Part shown: positions 7,298 through 42,636 of the stretch, piece by piece | Numbering within the stretch: position 1 is the stretch's first letter | How the letters are laid out: each line of letters opens with the position of its first letter | Virus record (IMG/VR): IMGVR_UViG_3300008119_000006 | Origin: a virus | Direction: 5' to 3' (one strand) | DNA length: 64,000 nt | Made by a program: the position numbers and the translations under genes | The notes under the pieces: generated by a model | Database searches by the model: none | Seen by the model: the letters and a program-made list of their open reading frames with translations, nothing else | What the model was told of the DNA's origin: nothing

Positions 7298-9019
7298 ATG
7301 GCAATCCAAATCTCTCCAGGCGTATCCGTATCTGAAGTCGACCAAACCACGGTTGTTCCTTCAATACTAACTACTGCCGGTGCATTCGCTGGAAACTTTG
7401 CATGGGGTCCAGCAAACCAAATTGTTACAGTTACCGATGAGGTTGATTTAGTCAATCGTTTTGGTAAACCAAATCCAAGCCCAACCACCAACACAACAAC
7501 TAGTTTTTTAACAGCCGCTTCTTTTTTAGCTTACGGTAATAATTTAAAAATTGTTCGTGCTATTAATGTTGGAGCTACTAATGCTACTGCAACTGGTTCA
7601 TATATTCAAATTAGTAATCCTGAAGTATATACCGATTTTGGTTTTAATTCAGACCAAGGAAACGTTTATGGCGCTTTCGCTGCAAGATTCATTGGTACTT
7701 ATGGTAATTCTTTAGCCGTTTCTGTTGTAGACGCCAATACATATTCAGCTAGTTGGAACGTCAATGGTTATGGTGTTGCTAGTTTCTTTAACGGTGCTCC
7801 AGGTACATCTGCACAAGCTGCGGCTTATGGTGCAGCCAATGATGAAATTCACGTTGCTGTTGTTGACATAGGTGGTGCATTTTCTGGCACAAAAGGTACA
7901 GTATTAGAAACATACCCATACCTATCAAAAGCTACAAATGTGACCGATTCTTTAGGAAATTCAAATTGGTACAAACAAGTAATTTATAACCAATCCAAAT
8001 ACATTTATGCAATGGATACTCCTGGTTATGCCACGACAAATTCTACTTGGAATAGACCAGCATCTAACAATTTTGTTTTTGCAACATTAGCTACCAGGTC
8101 AACTTCAATACTGTCTGGCGGTATTGACCAAGACCCAAGTACTGCAAACACAATTACAGCATTTTCAAAATTTCAAAGTCCAGATGATGTGGATATCTCA
8201 CTAGTAATTACTGGTGATGCAAGCAATACAGTACAACAATATGTTATCGATAGCATCGTTAATACTCGTAAAGACTGTGTAGCATTTATTTCACCGCCAT
8301 CTTCAGCTGTGATAAATCAAAGTGGTTCTGAAACAACCAATATTACTACTTGGTATAATGGTTTAAATCGTACAACATCTTATGCTGTTGCTGATACTGG
8401 TTGGAAGTATATGTTCAACAAGTACAGTAATACTTACCAGTATGTTCCGCTAAATGCTGATATTGCTGGTTTATGTGTATATACCGATTCAGTTACAGAT
8501 CCATGGTTCTCACCTGCTGGTTTAAATCGTGGCGCATTAAAGAATGTTGTTCGTTTGGCATGGAATCCAAAACAAACAGATAGAGATACATTGTATTCTT
8601 TAGGCATTAATTCTGTTGTTTCTTTACCAGGTCAAGGAACAGTTCTTTACGGAGATAAAACACTACAAGCCAAACCATCAGCGTTTGACCGTATTAATGT
8701 ACGCAGATTGTTTATTGTACTTGAAAAAGCAATTGCAACTGCCTCTAAGTACTCTTTGTTTGAATTCAATGATGATTTTACCAGAGCAGACTTTGTTGCC
8801 ATGGTAACTCCGTTCTTACGAGATGTTCAAGGTCGCCGTGGTATTACTGACTTCCGTGTTGTTTGTGACACTACAAATAATACCCCGCAAGTTATTGATT
8901 CTAATCAGTTTGTTGGTGACATTTACATCAAGCCTGCTCGTTCAATTAATTTCATCCAATTGAATTTCGTTGCTGTAAGAACTGGCGTCAACTTTACAAC
9001 AATCGTTGGTGCAGCTTAA
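7298..9019 (+). CDS. gp18: tail sheath protein
   Basis: SPGVSVSEVD, FAWGP, PWFSPAGLNRG, FDRINVRRLF, FEFND, KPARSINFIQLNF. Confidence 0.98.
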   Translation: MAIQISPGVSVSEVDQTTVVPSILTTAGAFAGNFAWGPANQIVTVTDEVDLVNRFGKPNPSPTTNTTTSFLTAASFLAYGNNLKIVRAINVGATNATATGSYIQISNPEVYTDFGFNSDQGNVYGAFAARFIGTYGNSLAVSVVDANTYSASWNVNGYGVASFFNGAPGTSAQAAAYGAANDEIHVAVVDIGGAFSGTKGTVLETYPYLSKATNVTDSLGNSNWYKQVIYNQSKYIYAMDTPGYATTNSTWNRPASNNFVFATLATRSTSILSGGIDQDPSTANTITAFSKFQSPDDVDISLVITGDASNTVQQYVIDSIVNTRKDCVAFISPPSSAVINQSGSETTNITTWYNGLNRTTSYAVADTGWKYMFNKYSNTYQYVPLNADIAGLCVYTDSVTDPWFSPAGLNRGALKNVVRLAWNPKQTDRDTLYSLGINSVVSLPGQGTVLYGDKTLQAKPSAFDRINVRRLFIVLEKAIATASKYSLFEFNDDFTRADFVAMVTPFLRDVQGRRGITDFRVVCDTTNNTPQVIDSNQFVGDIYIKPARSINFIQLNFVAVRTGVNFTTIVGAA

Positions 9020-24195: not shown

Positions 24196-24767
24196 CCGAA
24201 CTATTTAAAATTAATACAGAAGATGCCGTAAAAGAATCGGTATCATTACCTAAAGGAAGTATTCCTACTTTTAGATTGGTGTCTGAGGACCATCCAATCT
24301 TAAAAGAAGTAATGCCTGAATTTGATTTCACAACACCACCAGTTAATCCAAATGAGCTTGCCTCATCTTTGGTTGAGACCTGTAAGTTACACAAAGGTTA
24401 TGGATTATCTGCCAACCAATGTGGTTTCAAATACCGAGTTTTTGTTATGGGTGCCGAAGATAACTTTGTGGCACATTACAATCCAAAATTGTTAAAATCG
24501 TATGATGAAAAACATATGGTAGAAGGATGCCTTTCTTTTCCATTTTTAGGATTGTCTATTACCAGACCCGCAATGATTGATGTAGAATACCAAGACTTTA
24601 ATGGTGAGAAAAAAACGGCAACTTATTCTGGTATATCTGCTCGTTGTTTCCTACATGAGCTTGACCACATGAATGGAATAGTGTATACTAGTCGTGTTAA
24701 ACCAATGGCATTGCAATCTGGCATGAAGAAACGAAATAAATTAATGAAGAAAATCGGCTTAAAATAA
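24192..24767 (+). CDS. def: peptide deformylase
   Basis: GYGLSANQCG, EGCLS, HELDH motifs. Confidence 0.95.
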   Translation: MTELFKINTEDAVKESVSLPKGSIPTFRLVSEDHPILKEVMPEFDFTTPPVNPNELASSLVETCKLHKGYGLSANQCGFKYRVFVMGAEDNFVAHYNPKLLKSYDEKHMVEGCLSFPFLGLSITRPAMIDVEYQDFNGEKKTATYSGISARCFLHELDHMNGIVYTSRVKPMALQSGMKKRNKLMKKIGLK

Positions 24768-26026
24768 TGGCAACACCAATTGAGTTTGTAGAATCGCAAT
24801 GGAAAAAATGGTCGGCAAATAATACGACCTTTGAACATATTGATGAAAATGGTATGAAAGAAGTCCTCATCAAGGACTTAACATACGCTTCTCAAATGGA
24901 TGTTCGTGAGTATACTTTATACCAAAAGTGGTGTGAAGTAAAAGAAAGATATCCTGTTCATGAAGTATCTACATTATTTGGTTCTGAAACCATGATGGTG
25001 GATCCTGAACAAAAGAAATTAGTTGATAAAGTAAAATCTAATTTTTGGATGCCACAAGAACCTGATGATTATGAGAAATTGAAACCTGTTATGGTTCTCT
25101 CTAATGGTCCTGATGCCGAAAGATGGAATGCAATTCGTACATTCTCATCTACAATGAAAAACAACTCTAACATTGGCCGTAACCTTTTTTATGTTTTAAC
25201 AGATGAGGTAACTAATAAATACCTTGGTGTCATCTGTATCTCCTCAGATTTCTTGGACTTAACTCCGAGAGATAATGCAATCGGATGGTCGAGAGATATT
25301 AAGACACAGCAACACATGATTAACCATACTGCAATCGGTTCTACAATTGTTCCATTACAACCACTTGGTTTTAATTACATGGGTGGTAAATTGTTGGCAC
25401 TAATGTGTTTGTCCGATACAGTTCAAAAGGATTGGAAAAAACAATATGGAGATGTCCTTGTTGGAGTTACAACTACTAGTCTTTATGGGAATACTAAGTC
25501 TGGGGGCCTATCTCAGTATGATGGATTAGAACATTGGAATAAAATGGGATTCTCCTCAGGTTCTGTGGCATTTGAACCTAGTAGAGCAACCAAAAAACTA
25601 GTGTTTGACTGGATTAAAGAAAACCATACTCGTAAATATTTTGAATGGTGGGAAGCCAAGAATACTCAAGGCCTTCCACTTAAGCGTGACCACAAAAATA
25701 GGTCATTAAACTTTGCCTACTCCAAATTAGGTATTCCTAAACAACTCATTCGTACCGAACATCAACGTGGCATCTATTTTAGTCCACTCTATAATAATAC
25801 CAATGAATATCTCCGTAAGGAAATTACAGATGAGGCATTGGTAAAGTCTTTCGATACCAGTGAAGAAGCATTGAGTAATATTTGGAAAACCAAGTATGCC
25901 AAAGGCCGTATTCGGCAGTTACAAAAAAAGAATACGGTATCTTACGAAACTCTTTTCTATGACGACCTTATTTACCTGTCATGGGAAGATACCAAAGCGA
26001 AATATTTACCACAAGTTGGTCGATAA
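24767..26026 (+). CDS. DUF4338/DruA-like protein (Mom-related GNAT-like fold inferred), paralog 1
   Basis: GRNLFY, LTPRDNAIGW, PLGFNYMGGKLLA, DWKKQYGDVL..TTTSLYG, SQYDG, WNKMGFSSG. Confidence 0.8.
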   Translation: MATPIEFVESQWKKWSANNTTFEHIDENGMKEVLIKDLTYASQMDVREYTLYQKWCEVKERYPVHEVSTLFGSETMMVDPEQKKLVDKVKSNFWMPQEPDDYEKLKPVMVLSNGPDAERWNAIRTFSSTMKNNSNIGRNLFYVLTDEVTNKYLGVICISSDFLDLTPRDNAIGWSRDIKTQQHMINHTAIGSTIVPLQPLGFNYMGGKLLALMCLSDTVQKDWKKQYGDVLVGVTTTSLYGNTKSGGLSQYDGLEHWNKMGFSSGSVAFEPSRATKKLVFDWIKENHTRKYFEWWEAKNTQGLPLKRDHKNRSLNFAYSKLGIPKQLIRTEHQRGIYFSPLYNNTNEYLRKEITDEALVKSFDTSEEALSNIWKTKYAKGRIRQLQKKNTVSYETLFYDDLIYLSWEDTKAKYLPQVGR

Positions 26027-32841: not shown

Positions 32842-33381
32842 ATGAAGTTAAGTATAGTTGGTTGTCCCGATAAAGAACGCTTTAGACCTTATGTCAAGCG
32901 AGCTGCTCAGTTTTACGCTCAGGAACTAATATCTGAAAAAATGTTAGAAAACATCTTTGTTCGGATAAAGTTTAGTAAAGATTTACCTGCTTATGGTTAT
33001 GCTTCGGTAGAAGATTATAATGATAGTGGTAAACCTAGAGAATTTGAAATTGAGTTACATTCTGGCATTGGTGGTTATGATATTCTCAAAACATTAGCAC
33101 ATGAAATGGTTCATGTTAAACAATATGTTTATGGTGAAACCAATGAAAGATTATCTCGTTGGAAAGGCCAAAGAGTGGATTCTGATACCATTGATTATTG
33201 GGTTCAGCCTTGGGAAATAGAAGCACACGGATATGAAGCTGGTTTATTTACCAAATTTGCTATCAAAGAAAAACTTTGGGAAGTATTTGAAGGTGTTAGT
33301 AATCCAGATTCAGAAATTAAAATAGAACCTATAGGTTGGAAAAATATACCACAAATAACTATTGACAATCAACCTATATAA
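32842..33381 (+). CDS. zincin-like metallopeptidase domain protein
   Basis: TLAHEMVHVKQ (HExxH) and PWEIEA third-ligand motif. Confidence 0.8.
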   Translation: MKLSIVGCPDKERFRPYVKRAAQFYAQELISEKMLENIFVRIKFSKDLPAYGYASVEDYNDSGKPREFEIELHSGIGGYDILKTLAHEMVHVKQYVYGETNERLSRWKGQRVDSDTIDYWVQPWEIEAHGYEAGLFTKFAIKEKLWEVFEGVSNPDSEIKIEPIGWKNIPQITIDNQPI

Positions 33382-33390
33382 TGTTATAGT
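33362..33390 (+). promoter_or_regulatory. sigma70 promoter for the tRNA region
   Basis: TTGACA-17 nt-TATAGT ending 10 nt before the first tRNA. Confidence 0.8.
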
Positions 33391-33399
33391 ATTACATAT

Positions 33400-33469
33400 G
33401 CGGTCGGGGTATAGAACCAGAGTAGGTGTCCAACTTACTCATCTAGTGCGAATCTAGACCACCGCTCCA
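33400..33469 (+). tRNA. non-canonical tRNA-Gly(UCC)-like RNA
   Basis: Acceptor GCGGTCG/CCACCGC, U73, encoded CCA; anticodon arm GAGTAGG-TGTCCAA-CTTACTC; T arm TCTAG-TGCGAAT-CTAGA; mini D arm GGT-ATAGA-ACC; 70 nt. Confidence 0.8.
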
Positions 33470-33488: not shown

Positions 33489-33662
33489 ATGGCAGTTTCG
33501 AAATCAAAAAAGAAAAATCCGATGTTAACGAAAAATGGTAAACCAAGATTAGGTCCATTAAACATTTCTCAATTAACAAAGATGTTAGACGGTGCTCGTA
33601 AGAAAAATGTTGCTAAGATTAAAAGAGCTATTGCAAAACGTTTAAAAACACAAACTATATAG
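33489..33662 (+). CDS. 57-aa highly basic protein (not in ORF track)
   Basis: AAGGA RBS; MAVSKSKKKNPMLTKNGKPRLGPLN...KRLKTQTI*. Confidence 0.7.
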   Translation: MAVSKSKKKNPMLTKNGKPRLGPLNISQLTKMLDGARKKNVAKIKRAIAKRLKTQTI

Positions 33663-33666
33663 TTAT

Positions 33667-33741
33667 AGCGGGGTAGCTCAGAGGTAGAGCATTGGACTCA
33701 TAATCCAGGGGCCGTAGGTTCGATTCCTTCCCCCGCAACCA
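33667..33741 (+). tRNA. tRNA-Met(CAU) with initiator-like acceptor stem
   Basis: AGCGGGG/CCCCGCA-A-CCA, D arm GCTC/GAGC, anticodon loop CTCATAA, T loop TTCGATT. Confidence 0.9.
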
Positions 33742-41330: not shown

Positions 41331-41530
41331 TGGAAACTAGAACAAGGACTTTGGTTAAGACCATCATTTATAGGATTTGGGTCTTATGCTCAACCTATGT
41401 GATGTTATTGATAACAGGACAGAGTTTGACACAGGCTCTTGTTCCTACCATTATTATAAATTGTGTCTGGATGACATCGTATTATTTGTATGATAGACTT
41501 TGGACTCGTATTAAATGGGGTAGAGTATGA
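41327..41530 (+). CDS. small membrane protein (DUF2061-like)
   Basis: ETRTRTLVKTIIYR...YYLYDRLWTRIKWG. Confidence 0.7.
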   Translation: MMETRTRTLVKTIIYRIWVLCSTYVMLLITGQSLTQALVPTIIINCVWMTSYYLYDRLWTRIKWGRV

Positions 41531-42636
41531 TATTAGAAAGAGTTGATGCTCTCCATGTCGCAAAGGCATTCCATGATTACTTTAGTAATATTGGAAGTAC
41601 CGAAGAATATATGCGTGATGAAAAATTGAAATCGGTTGCCGAAATTCCAGCATCATTATTTCCACCAGAAGATGATTTGTTCTCCGATTTCACCATGCAC
41701 CCAAATGATATGGATATTGAGGTGTGTGAAATACCCAATACTCAATTCGAAACATTACTTGCCATTACCTCTTCTCATGTCAATAAAGCACCAGTTGGTA
41801 GAAACATACAATTGGCAGTTAAGGAGAAGAACTCAGGAAAGATTCTAGGATTCATTCGGTTGGGATCACCTGTCATCTATATGAAACCTAGAAATGAACT
41901 CTTAGGACAGGTCTGGATCCAACAGGAAGATACTGCCAAACGATTCAATGCTTCTACTATTATGGGTTTTGTAATTGTACCATCTCAACCATTTGGTTTT
42001 AATTACCTAGGTGGCAAACTTCTATCTGCCATTTGTACCAGTCATACAGTAAGAGAAATCTGTAATAAGAAATACGATATGAATGTTTGCCTATTTGAAA
42101 CTACCAGTTTGTATGGAAGTACCAAGTCTGTATCACAATATGATGGCATGAAACCTTATATTCGTTTTAGAGGTTTGACCGAATCAGATATCGTACCAAT
42201 GATGCACGGTGAACGATATACAGATTTGAAGGCATTTGTGGAAAGTAAAGTTGGAGATTTATTGGCGGGAGATACATCAAGTACCAGTAGAAAACTAAGA
42301 ACTTTTACCAAGATGATTGCCTTAACAAAAGCCGCTCTAAAGGGAACATCTGAAGGCGATGCTTTCAACCTAACGATTGAGAACGCCAAAAAGTTGACAG
42401 AGAAAAAAAGATATTATACATCTGATTATGGATTCAAAAATTCAGTTGATTACATGAACTGTAAAACCGATAAACTTTTACCTGGTGAAAATTATGCCAA
42501 ACATGAACTGGCCAATATCATTGAGTGGTGGCGGAGCAAAGCTATAAATAGATACGAAACCCTTAAAACTGAGGGTAGATTAAGAACAGAATTAGAAATC
42601 TGGACTTCAGGCAAAGACATTCAAATCATTAGGTGA
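41527..42636 (+). CDS. DUF4338/DruA-like protein (Mom-related GNAT-like fold inferred), paralog 2
   Basis: PVGRNI, GFIRLGSP, QPFGFNYLGGKLL, FETTSLYG, SQYDG shared with 24767..26026. Confidence 0.78.
   Translation: MILERVDALHVAKAFHDYFSNIGSTEEYMRDEKLKSVAEIPASLFPPEDDLFSDFTMHPNDMDIEVCEIPNTQFETLLAITSSHVNKAPVGRNIQLAVKEKNSGKILGFIRLGSPVIYMKPRNELLGQVWIQQEDTAKRFNASTIMGFVIVPSQPFGFNYLGGKLLSAICTSHTVREICNKKYDMNVCLFETTSLYGSTKSVSQYDGMKPYIRFRGLTESDIVPMMHGERYTDLKAFVESKVGDLLAGDTSSTSRKLRTFTKMIALTKAALKGTSEGDAFNLTIENAKKLTEKKRYYTSDYGFKNSVDYMNCKTDKLLPGENYAKHELANIIEWWRSKAINRYETLKTEGRLRTELEIWTSGKDIQIIR

What the first reader, a model, noticed from the sequence alone, without database searches (positions are those of the whole stretch)
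33400..33469. Aberrant tRNA-Gly that looks built for charging but not for the ribosome
Seen in sequence: a 70-nt RNA with its own TTGACA-17-TATAGT promoter and encoded CCA. It keeps the bacterial GlyRS identity set (G1-C72, C2-G71, G3-C70, U73, anticodon UCC). It breaks the features translation needs: no U8; D arm reduced to GGT-ATAGA-ACC with no G18G19; anticodon stem extended to 7 bp; 1-nt variable region; G33 instead of U33; T loop UGCGAAU (GUGC in place of GUUC); A/U-rich T stem (U49-A65, U51-A63, A52-U62). All stems still pair except C6xC67, which argues against random decay. Established: staphylococcal non-proteinogenic tRNA-Gly species used for peptidoglycan bridges also lose the D-loop GG, carry GUGC instead of GTPsiC and bind EF-Tu weakly. 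Inference: this is a dedicated glycyl donor for a non-ribosomal transferase, or a decoy for anticodon nucleases.
Basis: partly seen in the sequence, partly recalled or inferred. Interest (0 to 1): 0.88.

Follow-up and report, generated by a model that had tools for sequence, protein, structure and literature searches.

The report
Phage mini glycine tRNA, probably non-decoding
A freshwater relative of the SAR11 (Pelagibacter) T4-like phages carries a real, strongly conserved 70-base shrunken glycine tRNA that keeps what is needed to be loaded with glycine but not what is needed to read codons, so it probably hands glycine to something other than the ribosome.

Summary
Window 33400-33469 (+) is a 70-nt cloverleaf ending in an encoded CCA. 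It lies 9 nt behind a near-consensus promoter. ARAGORN and Rfam do not call it.

It is not decay. I found 22 sequence variants in uncultured lake phages. Every stem change is compensatory or wobble, and the loops are frozen.

It is one branch of a wider unannotated family, with 67-, 69- and 70-nt lake forms and 74-nt forms in Pelagibacter phages HTVC008M and Mosig. Across the family G1-C72, C2-G71, G3-C70, U73, CCA, C35 and C36 never change. Position 33 is G, U or C, position 34 is U or A, and position 37 is A or C. Positions 32 and 38 covary as a Watson-Crick pair. Selection therefore guards the GlyRS identity set and not a decoding loop.

The compact core is not evidence against translation, because tRNAPyl has one. 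By T-stem rules, EF-Tu binding is only mildly weaker than for the phages' normal tRNA-Gly.

Best reading (about 0.4): a non-ribosomal glycyl donor. The candidate users are two DruA/DUF4338 GNAT-fold genes flanking it. Their nearest solved structure is Mu Mom, which uses Gly-tRNA to modify DNA. That link is fold-level only.

Earlier notes of this scan reported the same RNA on other DNA.

The parts
33362..33390 (+). Sigma-70-type promoter TTGACA-17-TATAGT with a TG extension. The -10 hexamer ends 9 nt before G1 of the RNA.
   Evidence: 11 of 12 matches. The hexamers are kept in 34 of 40 distinct contexts while 14 different spacers occur.
33400..33469 (+). 70-nt compact tRNA-Gly-like RNA. Layout: acceptor 33400-33406 with 33459-33465; D arm 33408-33418; anticodon arm 33420-33440; T arm 33442-33458; U73 at 33466; encoded CCA at 33467-33469.
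   Evidence: Not called by ARAGORN or Rfam.
33427..33433 (+). Anticodon loop UGUCCAA: U32, G33, U34-C35-C36 (33429-33431), A37, A38. U32 and A38 can pair, which leaves the pentaloop GUCCA.
   Evidence: the minimum-free-energy fold closes U-A. Across the family, positions 32-38 are U-A, A-U, C-G or G-C.
33489..33662 (+). 57-aa basic ORF with an AAGGA ribosome-binding site 20 nt after the CCA. It is probably on the same transcript. Its function is unknown and it is dispensable in relatives.
   Evidence: present in 26 of 40 contexts; deleted in L002-L004 and L008-L010. No Pfam, PHROG or NCBIfam hit.
33667..33741 (+). Canonical tRNA-Met (CAU), next gene in the same direction.
   Evidence: Rfam 63.9 bits.
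24767..26026 (+). DruA/DUF4338 protein A (419 aa). GNAT fold at residues ~100-363. Candidate user of the glycyl-RNA (inference).
   Evidence: Pfam PF14236, 74.7 bits. PADLOC DruA. AF2 pLDDT 94.9. Mu Mom 8bv8 is the top structural match: Z 9.8, 172 residues aligned.
41527..42636 (+). DruA/DUF4338 protein B (369 aa), paralog of A.
   Evidence: Pfam PF14236, 34.7 bits. 30% identity to A over 204 aa, E 1e-25.

Best explanation
The element is a functional, phage-encoded derivative of tRNA-Gly. It is transcribed from its own early-type promoter and trimmed to a 70-nt RNA with a genomically encoded CCA. It folds into a compact L-shape of normal arm lengths: acceptor 7 + T 5 pairs, and D 3 + anticodon stem 7 layers.

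It keeps every element that bacterial GlyRS uses: G1-C72, C2-G71, G3-C70, U73, C35 and C36. I therefore infer that the host enzyme glycylates it. Its anticodon loop is not kept in decoding form. It has G33 in place of U33, and 32-38 is a Watson-Crick pair that closes a pentaloop. I therefore infer that the glycine is not delivered to the ribosome and goes to a non-ribosomal acceptor.

The best candidate users are the two DruA/DUF4338 GNAT-fold proteins encoded about 8 kb on either side. They may act like phage Mu Mom, which transfers glycine from Gly-tRNA-Gly onto adenine in double-stranded DNA.

Shown: the RNA's reality, its conservation, its covariation, and which positions are held. Inferred: charging, exclusion from translation, and the partner.
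For: 1. Selection on structure. There are 20 aligned variants of the 70-nt form. All stem changes are compensatory or wobble, and no shuffle of 500 reaches the observed covariation. The 67-nt sister family has 9 pairs that change on both sides, including one in the D stem.

2. Selection on the glycine identity set and not on decoding. Loops in the family are UGUCCAA, AUACCCU, AUUCCCU, AUACCAU, ACACCCU, CUUCCCG, UUACCAA and G-GUCCA-C. Only C35 and C36 are constant. N33 is G, U or C, and N37 is A or C. Positions 32-38 are U-A, A-U, C-G or G-C. Canonical tRNA-Gly genes in the same loci always have UUUCCAA or UUGCCAA. In elongator tRNAs N33 is almost always U and N37 a purine (PMC6140457). GCGG...CCGC-U-CCA is invariant in all subfamilies.

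3. Not needed as the only glycine decoder. In many relatives it sits beside a canonical tRNA-Gly(UCC). UCC-cognate GGA and GGG make up only about 20% of Gly codons in the window.

2b. Precedent for this kind of RNA. Staphylococcal non-proteogenic tRNA-Gly has UGC in the T loop, does not bind EF-Tu, and feeds Fem transferases (PMC7826273).

5. Candidate user.
- Both flanking ORFs pass the Pfam DruA cut-off.
- The model of A is a GNAT. Mu Mom S124A ranks first of 48,161 chains, with Z 9.8 and 172 of 202 residues aligned.
- Mom uses Gly-tRNA-Gly to modify dA in DNA (PMC13219725).
- All 18 related contigs of at least 40 kb that carry a compact tRNA also carry DruA-like genes, as do HTVC008M and Mosig.

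6. Phage-only distribution. The 28-nt core has 0 hits in 185,579 species genomes.
Against: - No experiment shows transcription, processing, charging or exclusion from EF-Tu or the ribosome. RNA-library contigs show only presence.
- The compact core by itself is compatible with translation, as in tRNAPyl.
- The T-stem rule predicts only mildly weaker EF-Tu binding.
- The 74-nt pelagiphage forms have a normal loop, UUACCAA. Their ACC anticodon matches the commonest Gly codon, GGU, which is 62% of Gly codons in this window. The ancestor may therefore have been a decoder.
- The DruA-Mom link is fold-level only:
  - Z for Mom is tied within 1 unit with ordinary acetyl-CoA GNATs.
  - Profile-profile comparison finds no homology: probability 0.1%, E 0.55.
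  - No family member hits Pfam Mom.
- Mom accepts every E. coli tRNA-Gly isoacceptor, so it needs no special donor.
- A cyanophage with a DruA-like gene has only a canonical tRNA-Gly.
- The co-occurrence lies within one clade, so it is not independent evidence.
Confidence: 0.4

Rival explanations
1. It is a working glycine decoder with a compact core, in the manner of tRNAPyl or mitochondrial tRNA-Ser(UCN). Its shape may have evolved to escape host tRNA-targeting nucleases or modification enzymes while still serving phage translation.
For: - It lies in the phage tRNA region, and in relatives inside tRNA arrays.
- The arm lengths add up to a normal L-shape.
- tRNAPyl, with 0-1 linker nucleotides, a 4-5-nt D loop without GG and a 6-bp anticodon stem, is translated normally (PMC7609411).
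- The 74-nt HTVC008M form has the canonical loop UUACCAA and scores 49.5 bits on Rfam tRNA.
- The ACC anticodon matches GGU, the main Gly codon.
- In contigs G001 and G005 the 70-nt form is the only Gly-like tRNA found.
- A tRNA(CAU) in relatives shares the AUAG/UGC elbow.
Against: - G33, or C33, or C37 and a Watson-Crick 32-38 pair break the most constant rules of elongator anticodon loops.
- Positions 33, 34 and 37 drift between subfamilies while C35 and C36 do not.
- It coexists with a canonical tRNA-Gly(UCC) that has the same anticodon.
Confidence: 0.22
2. It is a decoy or sponge. As a chargeable tRNA-Gly look-alike, it would soak up a host factor that attacks tRNA-Gly or Gly-tRNA-Gly, for example a GNAT toxin of the TacT type or an anticodon nuclease, or it would perturb GlyRS regulation.
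For: - It has a strong promoter of its own.
- The acceptor end and C35-C36 are conserved, with no decoding constraint on the loop.
- TacT is a GNAT that targets Gly-tRNA-Gly (cited in PMC13219725).
Against: - A nuclease decoy should copy the host's anticodon loop, yet the loop varies between subfamilies.
- No such host system is known for the presumed hosts.
- Nothing in the window points to it.
Confidence: 0.12
3. It is a tRNA-shaped processing or stability signal. RNase P and 3' trimming at the element would define or protect the 5' end of the downstream message, and the RNA would have no job of its own.
For: - It is the first element of the transcript.
- No terminator lies before the 57-aa ORF and tRNA-Met.
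- In HTVC008M the homologous tRNA lies 14 nt before the S21 gene.
Against: - The downstream partner changes: small ORF, tRNA-Gly, tRNA-Thr or other.
- A mere processing signal would not need C35-C36, U73 and the first three acceptor pairs to be invariant across subfamilies.
Confidence: 0.08
4. It is a decaying tRNA-Gly pseudogene.
For: tRNA finders reject it.
Against: It is about 93% identical across loci whose flanking protein drops to about 65% identity. Changes are compensatory and the loops are frozen.
Confidence: 0.01

Closest known systems
Non-proteogenic tRNA-Gly (NP1-NP3) of Staphylococcus aureus and S. epidermidis, glycyl donors for FmhB/FemA/FemB (PMC7826273; PMC3239215)
   Same: - The glycine identity set is kept.
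- UGC replaces UUC in the T loop.
- The D loop has no G18-G19.
- A normal tRNA-Gly sits beside it in the same genome.
- The logic is the same: a charged tRNA kept away from translation.
   Different: - The staphylococcal tRNAs are full-size, with a normal anticodon arm. Their lineage is restricted to staphylococci.
- This RNA is phage-encoded, 70 nt long, and has a 7-bp anticodon stem, a 1-nt variable region and G33.
- No Fem-family gene was found in the related phage genomes.
- Weak EF-Tu binding is not shown here.
tRNAPyl and mammalian mitochondrial tRNA-Ser(UCN): compact-core tRNAs (PMC7609411)
   Same: - One nucleotide, or none, between the acceptor and D stems.
- A 4-5-nt D loop without GG.
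- A lengthened anticodon stem that makes up for the small D arm.
- A very short variable region.
   Different: - Those tRNAs keep U33 and R37 and do decode.
- Here the stem is 7 bp and the variable region is 1 nt.
- The identity is Gly (U73, C35, C36), not Pyl or Ser.
Phage Mu Mom, the Gly-tRNA-Gly-dependent adenine hypermodification enzyme (PMC13219725; PDB 8bv8)
   Same: - It is a phage GNAT-fold enzyme that draws on charged tRNA-Gly.
- The flanking DruA-like protein has Mom as its top structural neighbour (Z 9.8).
- The DruA-like genes sit in the replication module.
   Different: - Mu has no tRNA of its own and uses any host isoacceptor.
- The DruA/DUF4338 proteins show no sequence-level homology to the Mom family.
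- Their activity is unknown.
74-nt tRNA-Gly(ACC) of Pelagibacter phages HTVC008M and Mosig EXVC030M (unannotated in GenBank)
   Same: - Same acceptor GCGG..CCGC-U-CCA.
- D loop without GG.
- xGC T loop.
- Same neighbourhood near Hsp20 and the clamp genes.
- The same phages carry DruA-like genes.
   Different: They are full length, with a 5-bp anticodon stem, the normal loop UUACCAA and a 4-nt variable region. They may still decode.

Membership tests
Canonical elongator tRNA (Rfam RF00005) | Recognised by tRNA covariance and heuristic models | tested here: not met
   No RF00005 match at E <= 10. ARAGORN of 43 compact elements.
Canonical elongator tRNA (Rfam RF00005) | U33 and purine 37 in a 7-nt anticodon loop with a non-Watson-Crick 32-38 | tested here: not met
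   G33 here. Positions 32-38 are U-A and covary as a Watson-Crick pair across the family. The rule is from PMC6140457.
Canonical elongator tRNA (Rfam RF00005) | U8, G18-G19, T54-Psi55-C56, a 5-bp anticodon stem and a variable region of at least 4 nt | tested here: not met
   G8; D loop AUAGA; T loop UGCGAAU; 7-bp anticodon stem; 1-nt variable region.
Canonical elongator tRNA (Rfam RF00005) | 7-bp acceptor plus 5-bp T stem, discriminator base and CCA end | tested here: met
   Pair 6-67 is always a mismatch.
tRNA-Gly (bacterial GlyRS substrate) | G1-C72, C2-G71, G3-C70, U73, C35 and C36 | tested here: met
   All are present and invariant in every subfamily. The determinants are as listed in PMC7826273. 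Actual charging cannot be tested here.
Staphylococcal non-proteogenic tRNA-Gly | UGC or UGU in place of UUC in the T loop | tested here: met
   T loop UGCGAAU; PMC7826273.
Staphylococcal non-proteogenic tRNA-Gly | Poor binding to EF-Tu-GTP | tested here: inconclusive
   The T-stem rule gives +0.6 to +1.0 kcal/mol, against -0.5 to +0.5 for the canonical phage tRNA-Gly (table in PMC3239215).
Staphylococcal non-proteogenic tRNA-Gly | A Fem-family transferase as user | tested here: not met
   PF02388 is absent from five related phage contigs, two of them about 100% complete.
Mom-type tRNA-dependent DNA modification | A protein of the Mom family (Pfam PF25680) | tested here: not met
   No PF25680 match in five related contigs or in 61 DruA-like proteins. 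hhalign of DruA-like against Mom gives probability 0.1%.
Mom-type tRNA-dependent DNA modification | GNAT fold resembling Mom | tested here: inconclusive
   The GNAT fold is clear. Mom 8bv8 ranks first (Z 9.8, rmsd 4.0, 172 aligned) but is tied within 1 Z unit with other GNATs.
Mom-type tRNA-dependent DNA modification | Equivalents of the catalytic residues R111 and S124; glycyl transfer to dA | not testable with these tools
   No residue-level superposition is available, and no assay.
Druantia defence system (DruA-E) | DruA together with the DruE helicase and other Dru genes | tested here: inconclusive
   Two DruA-family ORFs were found. The other Dru genes were not searched for. The ORFs sit among T4-type replication genes.

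The most novel reading that the evidence does not exclude
The compact tRNA and the two DruA/DUF4338 GNAT proteins form one phage system. A private, ribosome-insulated glycyl-RNA, charged by host GlyRS, would feed Mom-like enzymes that put glycine-derived groups on phage DNA without draining the host's small tRNA-Gly pool. This would also imply that DruA of Druantia is a tRNA-dependent nucleic-acid modifier.
Probability: 0.22. Interest if true: 0.9.

Novelty: new variant of a known kind. Interest (0 to 1): 0.74.

Why it matters
- Dedicated non-translating tRNAs are known from staphylococcal cell-wall synthesis. A virus-encoded one, with a core smaller than tRNAPyl, would be a new use of the principle.
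- Comparative data alone give a clean natural experiment on what GlyRS needs versus what the ribosome needs.
- The family is invisible to standard tRNA finders. It is unannotated, or mis-annotated as a CDS, in cultured Pelagibacter phages, so phage tRNA censuses miss it.
- Cultured relatives exist (HTVC008M, Mosig), and a Gly-tRNA-dependent DNA modification has just been demonstrated for Mom. The hypothesis can therefore be tested directly.
- If the DruA link holds, it would also give a first function for DUF4338.

Tried and rejected
- ARAGORN and Rfam, at gathering threshold and at E <= 10, give nothing at the element.
- Megablast of 2 kb and blastn of the 70 nt against 50,697 GenBank phage records give no match.
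- The 28-nt core pattern has no match in one genome per prokaryote species.
- A 15-mer scan of IMG/VR gave many chance loci. These were filtered with the covariance model.
- Lake metatranscriptome contigs hold relatives' copies of the element. One contig covers 33398-33469 exactly, with unlike flanks. Contigs in RNA libraries do not prove transcription or show ends.
- DruA-like proteins against PDB sequences, by phmmer and by profile, give nothing meaningful.
- Foldseek gives only E of about 1e-2.
- hhalign of the DruA-like profile against Mu Mom alone aligned 14 columns around a shared RGVY motif, at 1% probability. I did not count this as evidence. Profile against profile gave 0.1%.
- The 57-aa ORF against HTVC008M S21 shows no similarity. 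It has no Pfam, PHROG or NCBIfam hit.
- No Fem or Mom Pfam family was found in related contigs.
- Papers on Druantia that I read deal with DruE and DruH and say nothing on DruA.
- Two more distant contigs (G018, G019) have DruA-like genes but no model hit. They are fragments, so this says nothing either way.

Full report
**What is there**

- 7-pair acceptor stem with C6 opposite C67
- a single G between the acceptor and D stems
- D arm GGU-AUAGA-ACC
- one A
- a 7-bp anticodon stem with loop UGUCCAA
- a one-base variable region
- T arm UCUAG-UGCGAAU-CUAGA
- U73 and an encoded CCA

A TTGACA-17-TATAGT promoter with a TG extension ends 9 nt upstream. It matches 11 of 12 positions and is the best site in the 2-kb scan.

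The RNA folds into this cloverleaf as its minimum-energy structure: -25.5 kcal/mol, z = -3.2, and 0 of 200 shuffles fold as well. ARAGORN and Rfam see only the neighbouring tRNA-Met (33667-33741). Even at E <= 10 the Rfam tRNA model gives nothing here.

**Context**

The window is a T4-like phage replication module. It holds the clamp loader, RegA, Hsp20, DNA polymerase (best about 50% identity to cyanophage gp43) and UvsX.

The nearest cultured relatives, judged by a flanking gene, are the Pelagibacter phages Mosig EXVC030M and HTVC008M. All close relatives are uncultured contigs. The RNA libraries that hold relatives' copies of the element are labelled lake or fresh water.

**It is a selected RNA**

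I gathered copies in three ways:
- an exact 34-nt scan
- a scan with the upstream 179-aa ORF as bait
- a 15-mer scan filtered with a covariance model

Together these gave 55 instances and 20 aligned variants. A regular-expression count over all loci found 22 distinct sequences.

The flanking protein falls to about 65% identity while the RNA stays at about 93%.

All variation lies in stems and keeps pairing:
- U5-A68 changes to A-U.
- Three T-stem pairs switch on both sides.
- Pair 23-39 runs through G-C, U-A and U-G.
- The remaining changes are wobble changes.

The figures are 5 pairs changed on both sides (30 cells), 0 of 500 shuffles as high, and 0-1 in slid controls.

The D arm, the anticodon loop, the T loop (except R57) and the UCCA tail are invariant. 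Position 6 is always mismatched.

The promoter hexamers are kept in 34 of 40 distinct contexts across 14 different spacers. In the other six the element follows an ORF stop.

The downstream neighbour varies: the 57-aa ORF, a canonical tRNA-Gly, tRNA-Thr or something else. The RNA is therefore not tied to one downstream gene.

**A wider family**

The same model found related compact RNAs:

| Form | Where | Features |
|---|---|---|
| 67/68-nt | many relatives | 3-bp D stem, AUAG loop, 8-bp anticodon stem, 4-bp T stem |
| 69-nt | L060 | |
| second 70-nt | L118 | |
| 67-nt | complete 174.5-kb genome G003 | |

The 67-nt family has 9 pairs that change on both sides, including one in the D stem.

HTVC008M (91140-91213) and Mosig (7779-7852, minus strand) carry 74-nt versions. 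These have a normal anticodon arm, a D loop without GG and an xGC T loop. GenBank does not annotate the HTVC008M copy. The Mosig copy is overlaid by a hypothetical CDS. Only the HTVC008M copy is recognised by ARAGORN and Rfam.

In the G003 form the D-loop G and the T-loop C56 are both replaced (AUUA and UGAGAAU). This fits a D-loop G to C56 tertiary pair, but it rests on a single case.

**What selection holds**

Invariant across all forms: GCGG..CCGC, U73, CCA, C35 and C36.

| Position | States seen |
|---|---|
| 33 | G, U, C |
| 34 | U, A |
| 37 | A, C |
| 32-38 | U-A, A-U, C-G, G-C |

Positions 32-38 form a covarying Watson-Crick pair that closes a pentaloop. Canonical tRNA-Gly genes in the same loci always show UUUCCAA or UUGCCAA.

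In elongator tRNAs N33 is almost always U and N37 a purine. The 32-38 combinations are mostly C-A, U-A or U-U (PMC6140457).

The invariant positions are the glycine identity determinants (PMC7826273). This is the strongest argument that the RNA is kept for charging and not for decoding.

**What does not argue against translation**

- tRNAPyl has 0-1 linker nucleotides, a 4-5-nt D loop without GG, a 6-bp anticodon stem and a 3-nt variable region, and it uses the ordinary translation machinery (PMC7609411).
- The D 3 + anticodon 7 layers here equal the normal total of 10. This is my own count.
- A tRNA(CAU) of related phages has the same AUAG/UGC elbow and is called normally.
- EF-Tu binding by the published T-stem increments:
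  - U49-A65, C50-G64 and U51-A63 sum to +0.6 kcal/mol.
  - Variants reach +1.0.
  - Canonical phage tRNA-Gly stems give -0.5 to +0.5 (table in PMC3239215; sums are mine).
  - That paper treats differences above 1.3 kcal/mol from the class mean as outliers, so EF-Tu evasion is not shown.
- Gly codons in the window are 62% GGU, 19% GGC, 18% GGA and 2% GGG. The ACC forms match the main codon. The ancestor may therefore have decoded.

**Candidate user**

Earlier notes of this scan, on related DNA and on this window, pointed to Mom-like genes. I tested that lead.

- ORFs 24767-26026 and 41527-42636 both pass Pfam DruA/DUF4338 and PADLOC DruA. They are paralogs: 30% identity, E 1e-25.
- A 61-sequence alignment gave an AF2 model with pLDDT 94.9.
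- Residues ~100-363 form a GNAT fold.
- In a search of 48,161 representative chains, Mu Mom S124A (8bv8) ranks first: Z 9.8, rmsd 4.0, 172 residues aligned. Ordinary GNATs follow within 1 Z unit. FemA has Z 8.1.
- Sequence methods show no Mom homology.
- Mom transfers glycine from Gly-tRNA-Gly to N6 of dA in dsDNA. It accepts all three E. coli isoacceptors (PMC13219725).
- All 18 related contigs of at least 40 kb that carry a compact tRNA also carry DruA-like genes, usually two that flank the tRNA. Eight unrelated contigs have neither.
- This is one clade, so the co-occurrence is weak evidence.
- A cyanophage with a DruA-like gene has only a canonical tRNA-Gly.
- No Fem or Mom Pfam family occurs in the related genomes.

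**Verdict**

The RNA is a real, phage-only member of an undescribed family of compact tRNA-Gly derivatives. Its pattern of conservation fits 'chargeable, not decoding'.

A non-ribosomal glycyl-donor role is the best reading, at about 0.4. DruA-like GNAT enzymes are a plausible but unproven partner, at about 0.22 for the full system. A compact decoder (0.22) and a decoy (0.12) remain open.

I found no paper describing these RNAs.

Noticed in passing
window 33667-33741: The tRNA-Met (CAU) next to the element has an A1 x A72 mismatch at the top of the acceptor stem, flagged in the Rfam alignment. Related phages have a tRNA(CAU) with C1 x A72, a D loop without GG and a UGC T loop (L207:5096-5170, L063:6172-6243, L013:3696-3767). 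A 1-72 mismatch is an initiator-like trait.
   Followed up: partly
window 33489-33662: A 57-aa very basic ORF lies right after the compact tRNA. Its N terminus is conserved (MAVSKSKKKNPML...), its C terminus varies, and it is cleanly deleted in several close relatives. No family matches it, and it is not S21. In HTVC008M the equivalent slot holds ribosomal protein S21.
   Followed up: partly
GenBank KC465899 91140-91213 and MT647606 7779-7852 (L165, L164): The cultured Pelagibacter phages HTVC008M and Mosig carry a 74-nt tRNA-Gly(ACC) with an odd elbow. It is missing from the HTVC008M annotation. In Mosig it is covered by the hypothetical CDS Mosig_000011.
   Followed up: yes
window 24767-26026 and 41527-42636: Two DruA/DUF4338 paralogs sit inside a phage replication module. 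DruA is otherwise known as a component of the bacterial Druantia defence system. One cyanophage copy is annotated 'methylcarbamoylase mom' by its depositors (PQ898602).
   Followed up: partly
L207 (G003:C1:86000-96000): A complete 174.5-kb relative carries an array of 27 tRNA genes in 5 kb. The array ends in tRNA-Gly(GCC), tRNA-Thr, tRNA-Gly(UCC), a compact Gly-like RNA and the odd tRNA(CAU).
   Followed up: partly
window 32842-33381: The 179-aa ORF upstream (PHROG 10499, unknown function) has at least 589 relatives in IMG/VR. It is the usual left neighbour of the compact tRNA.
   Followed up: no
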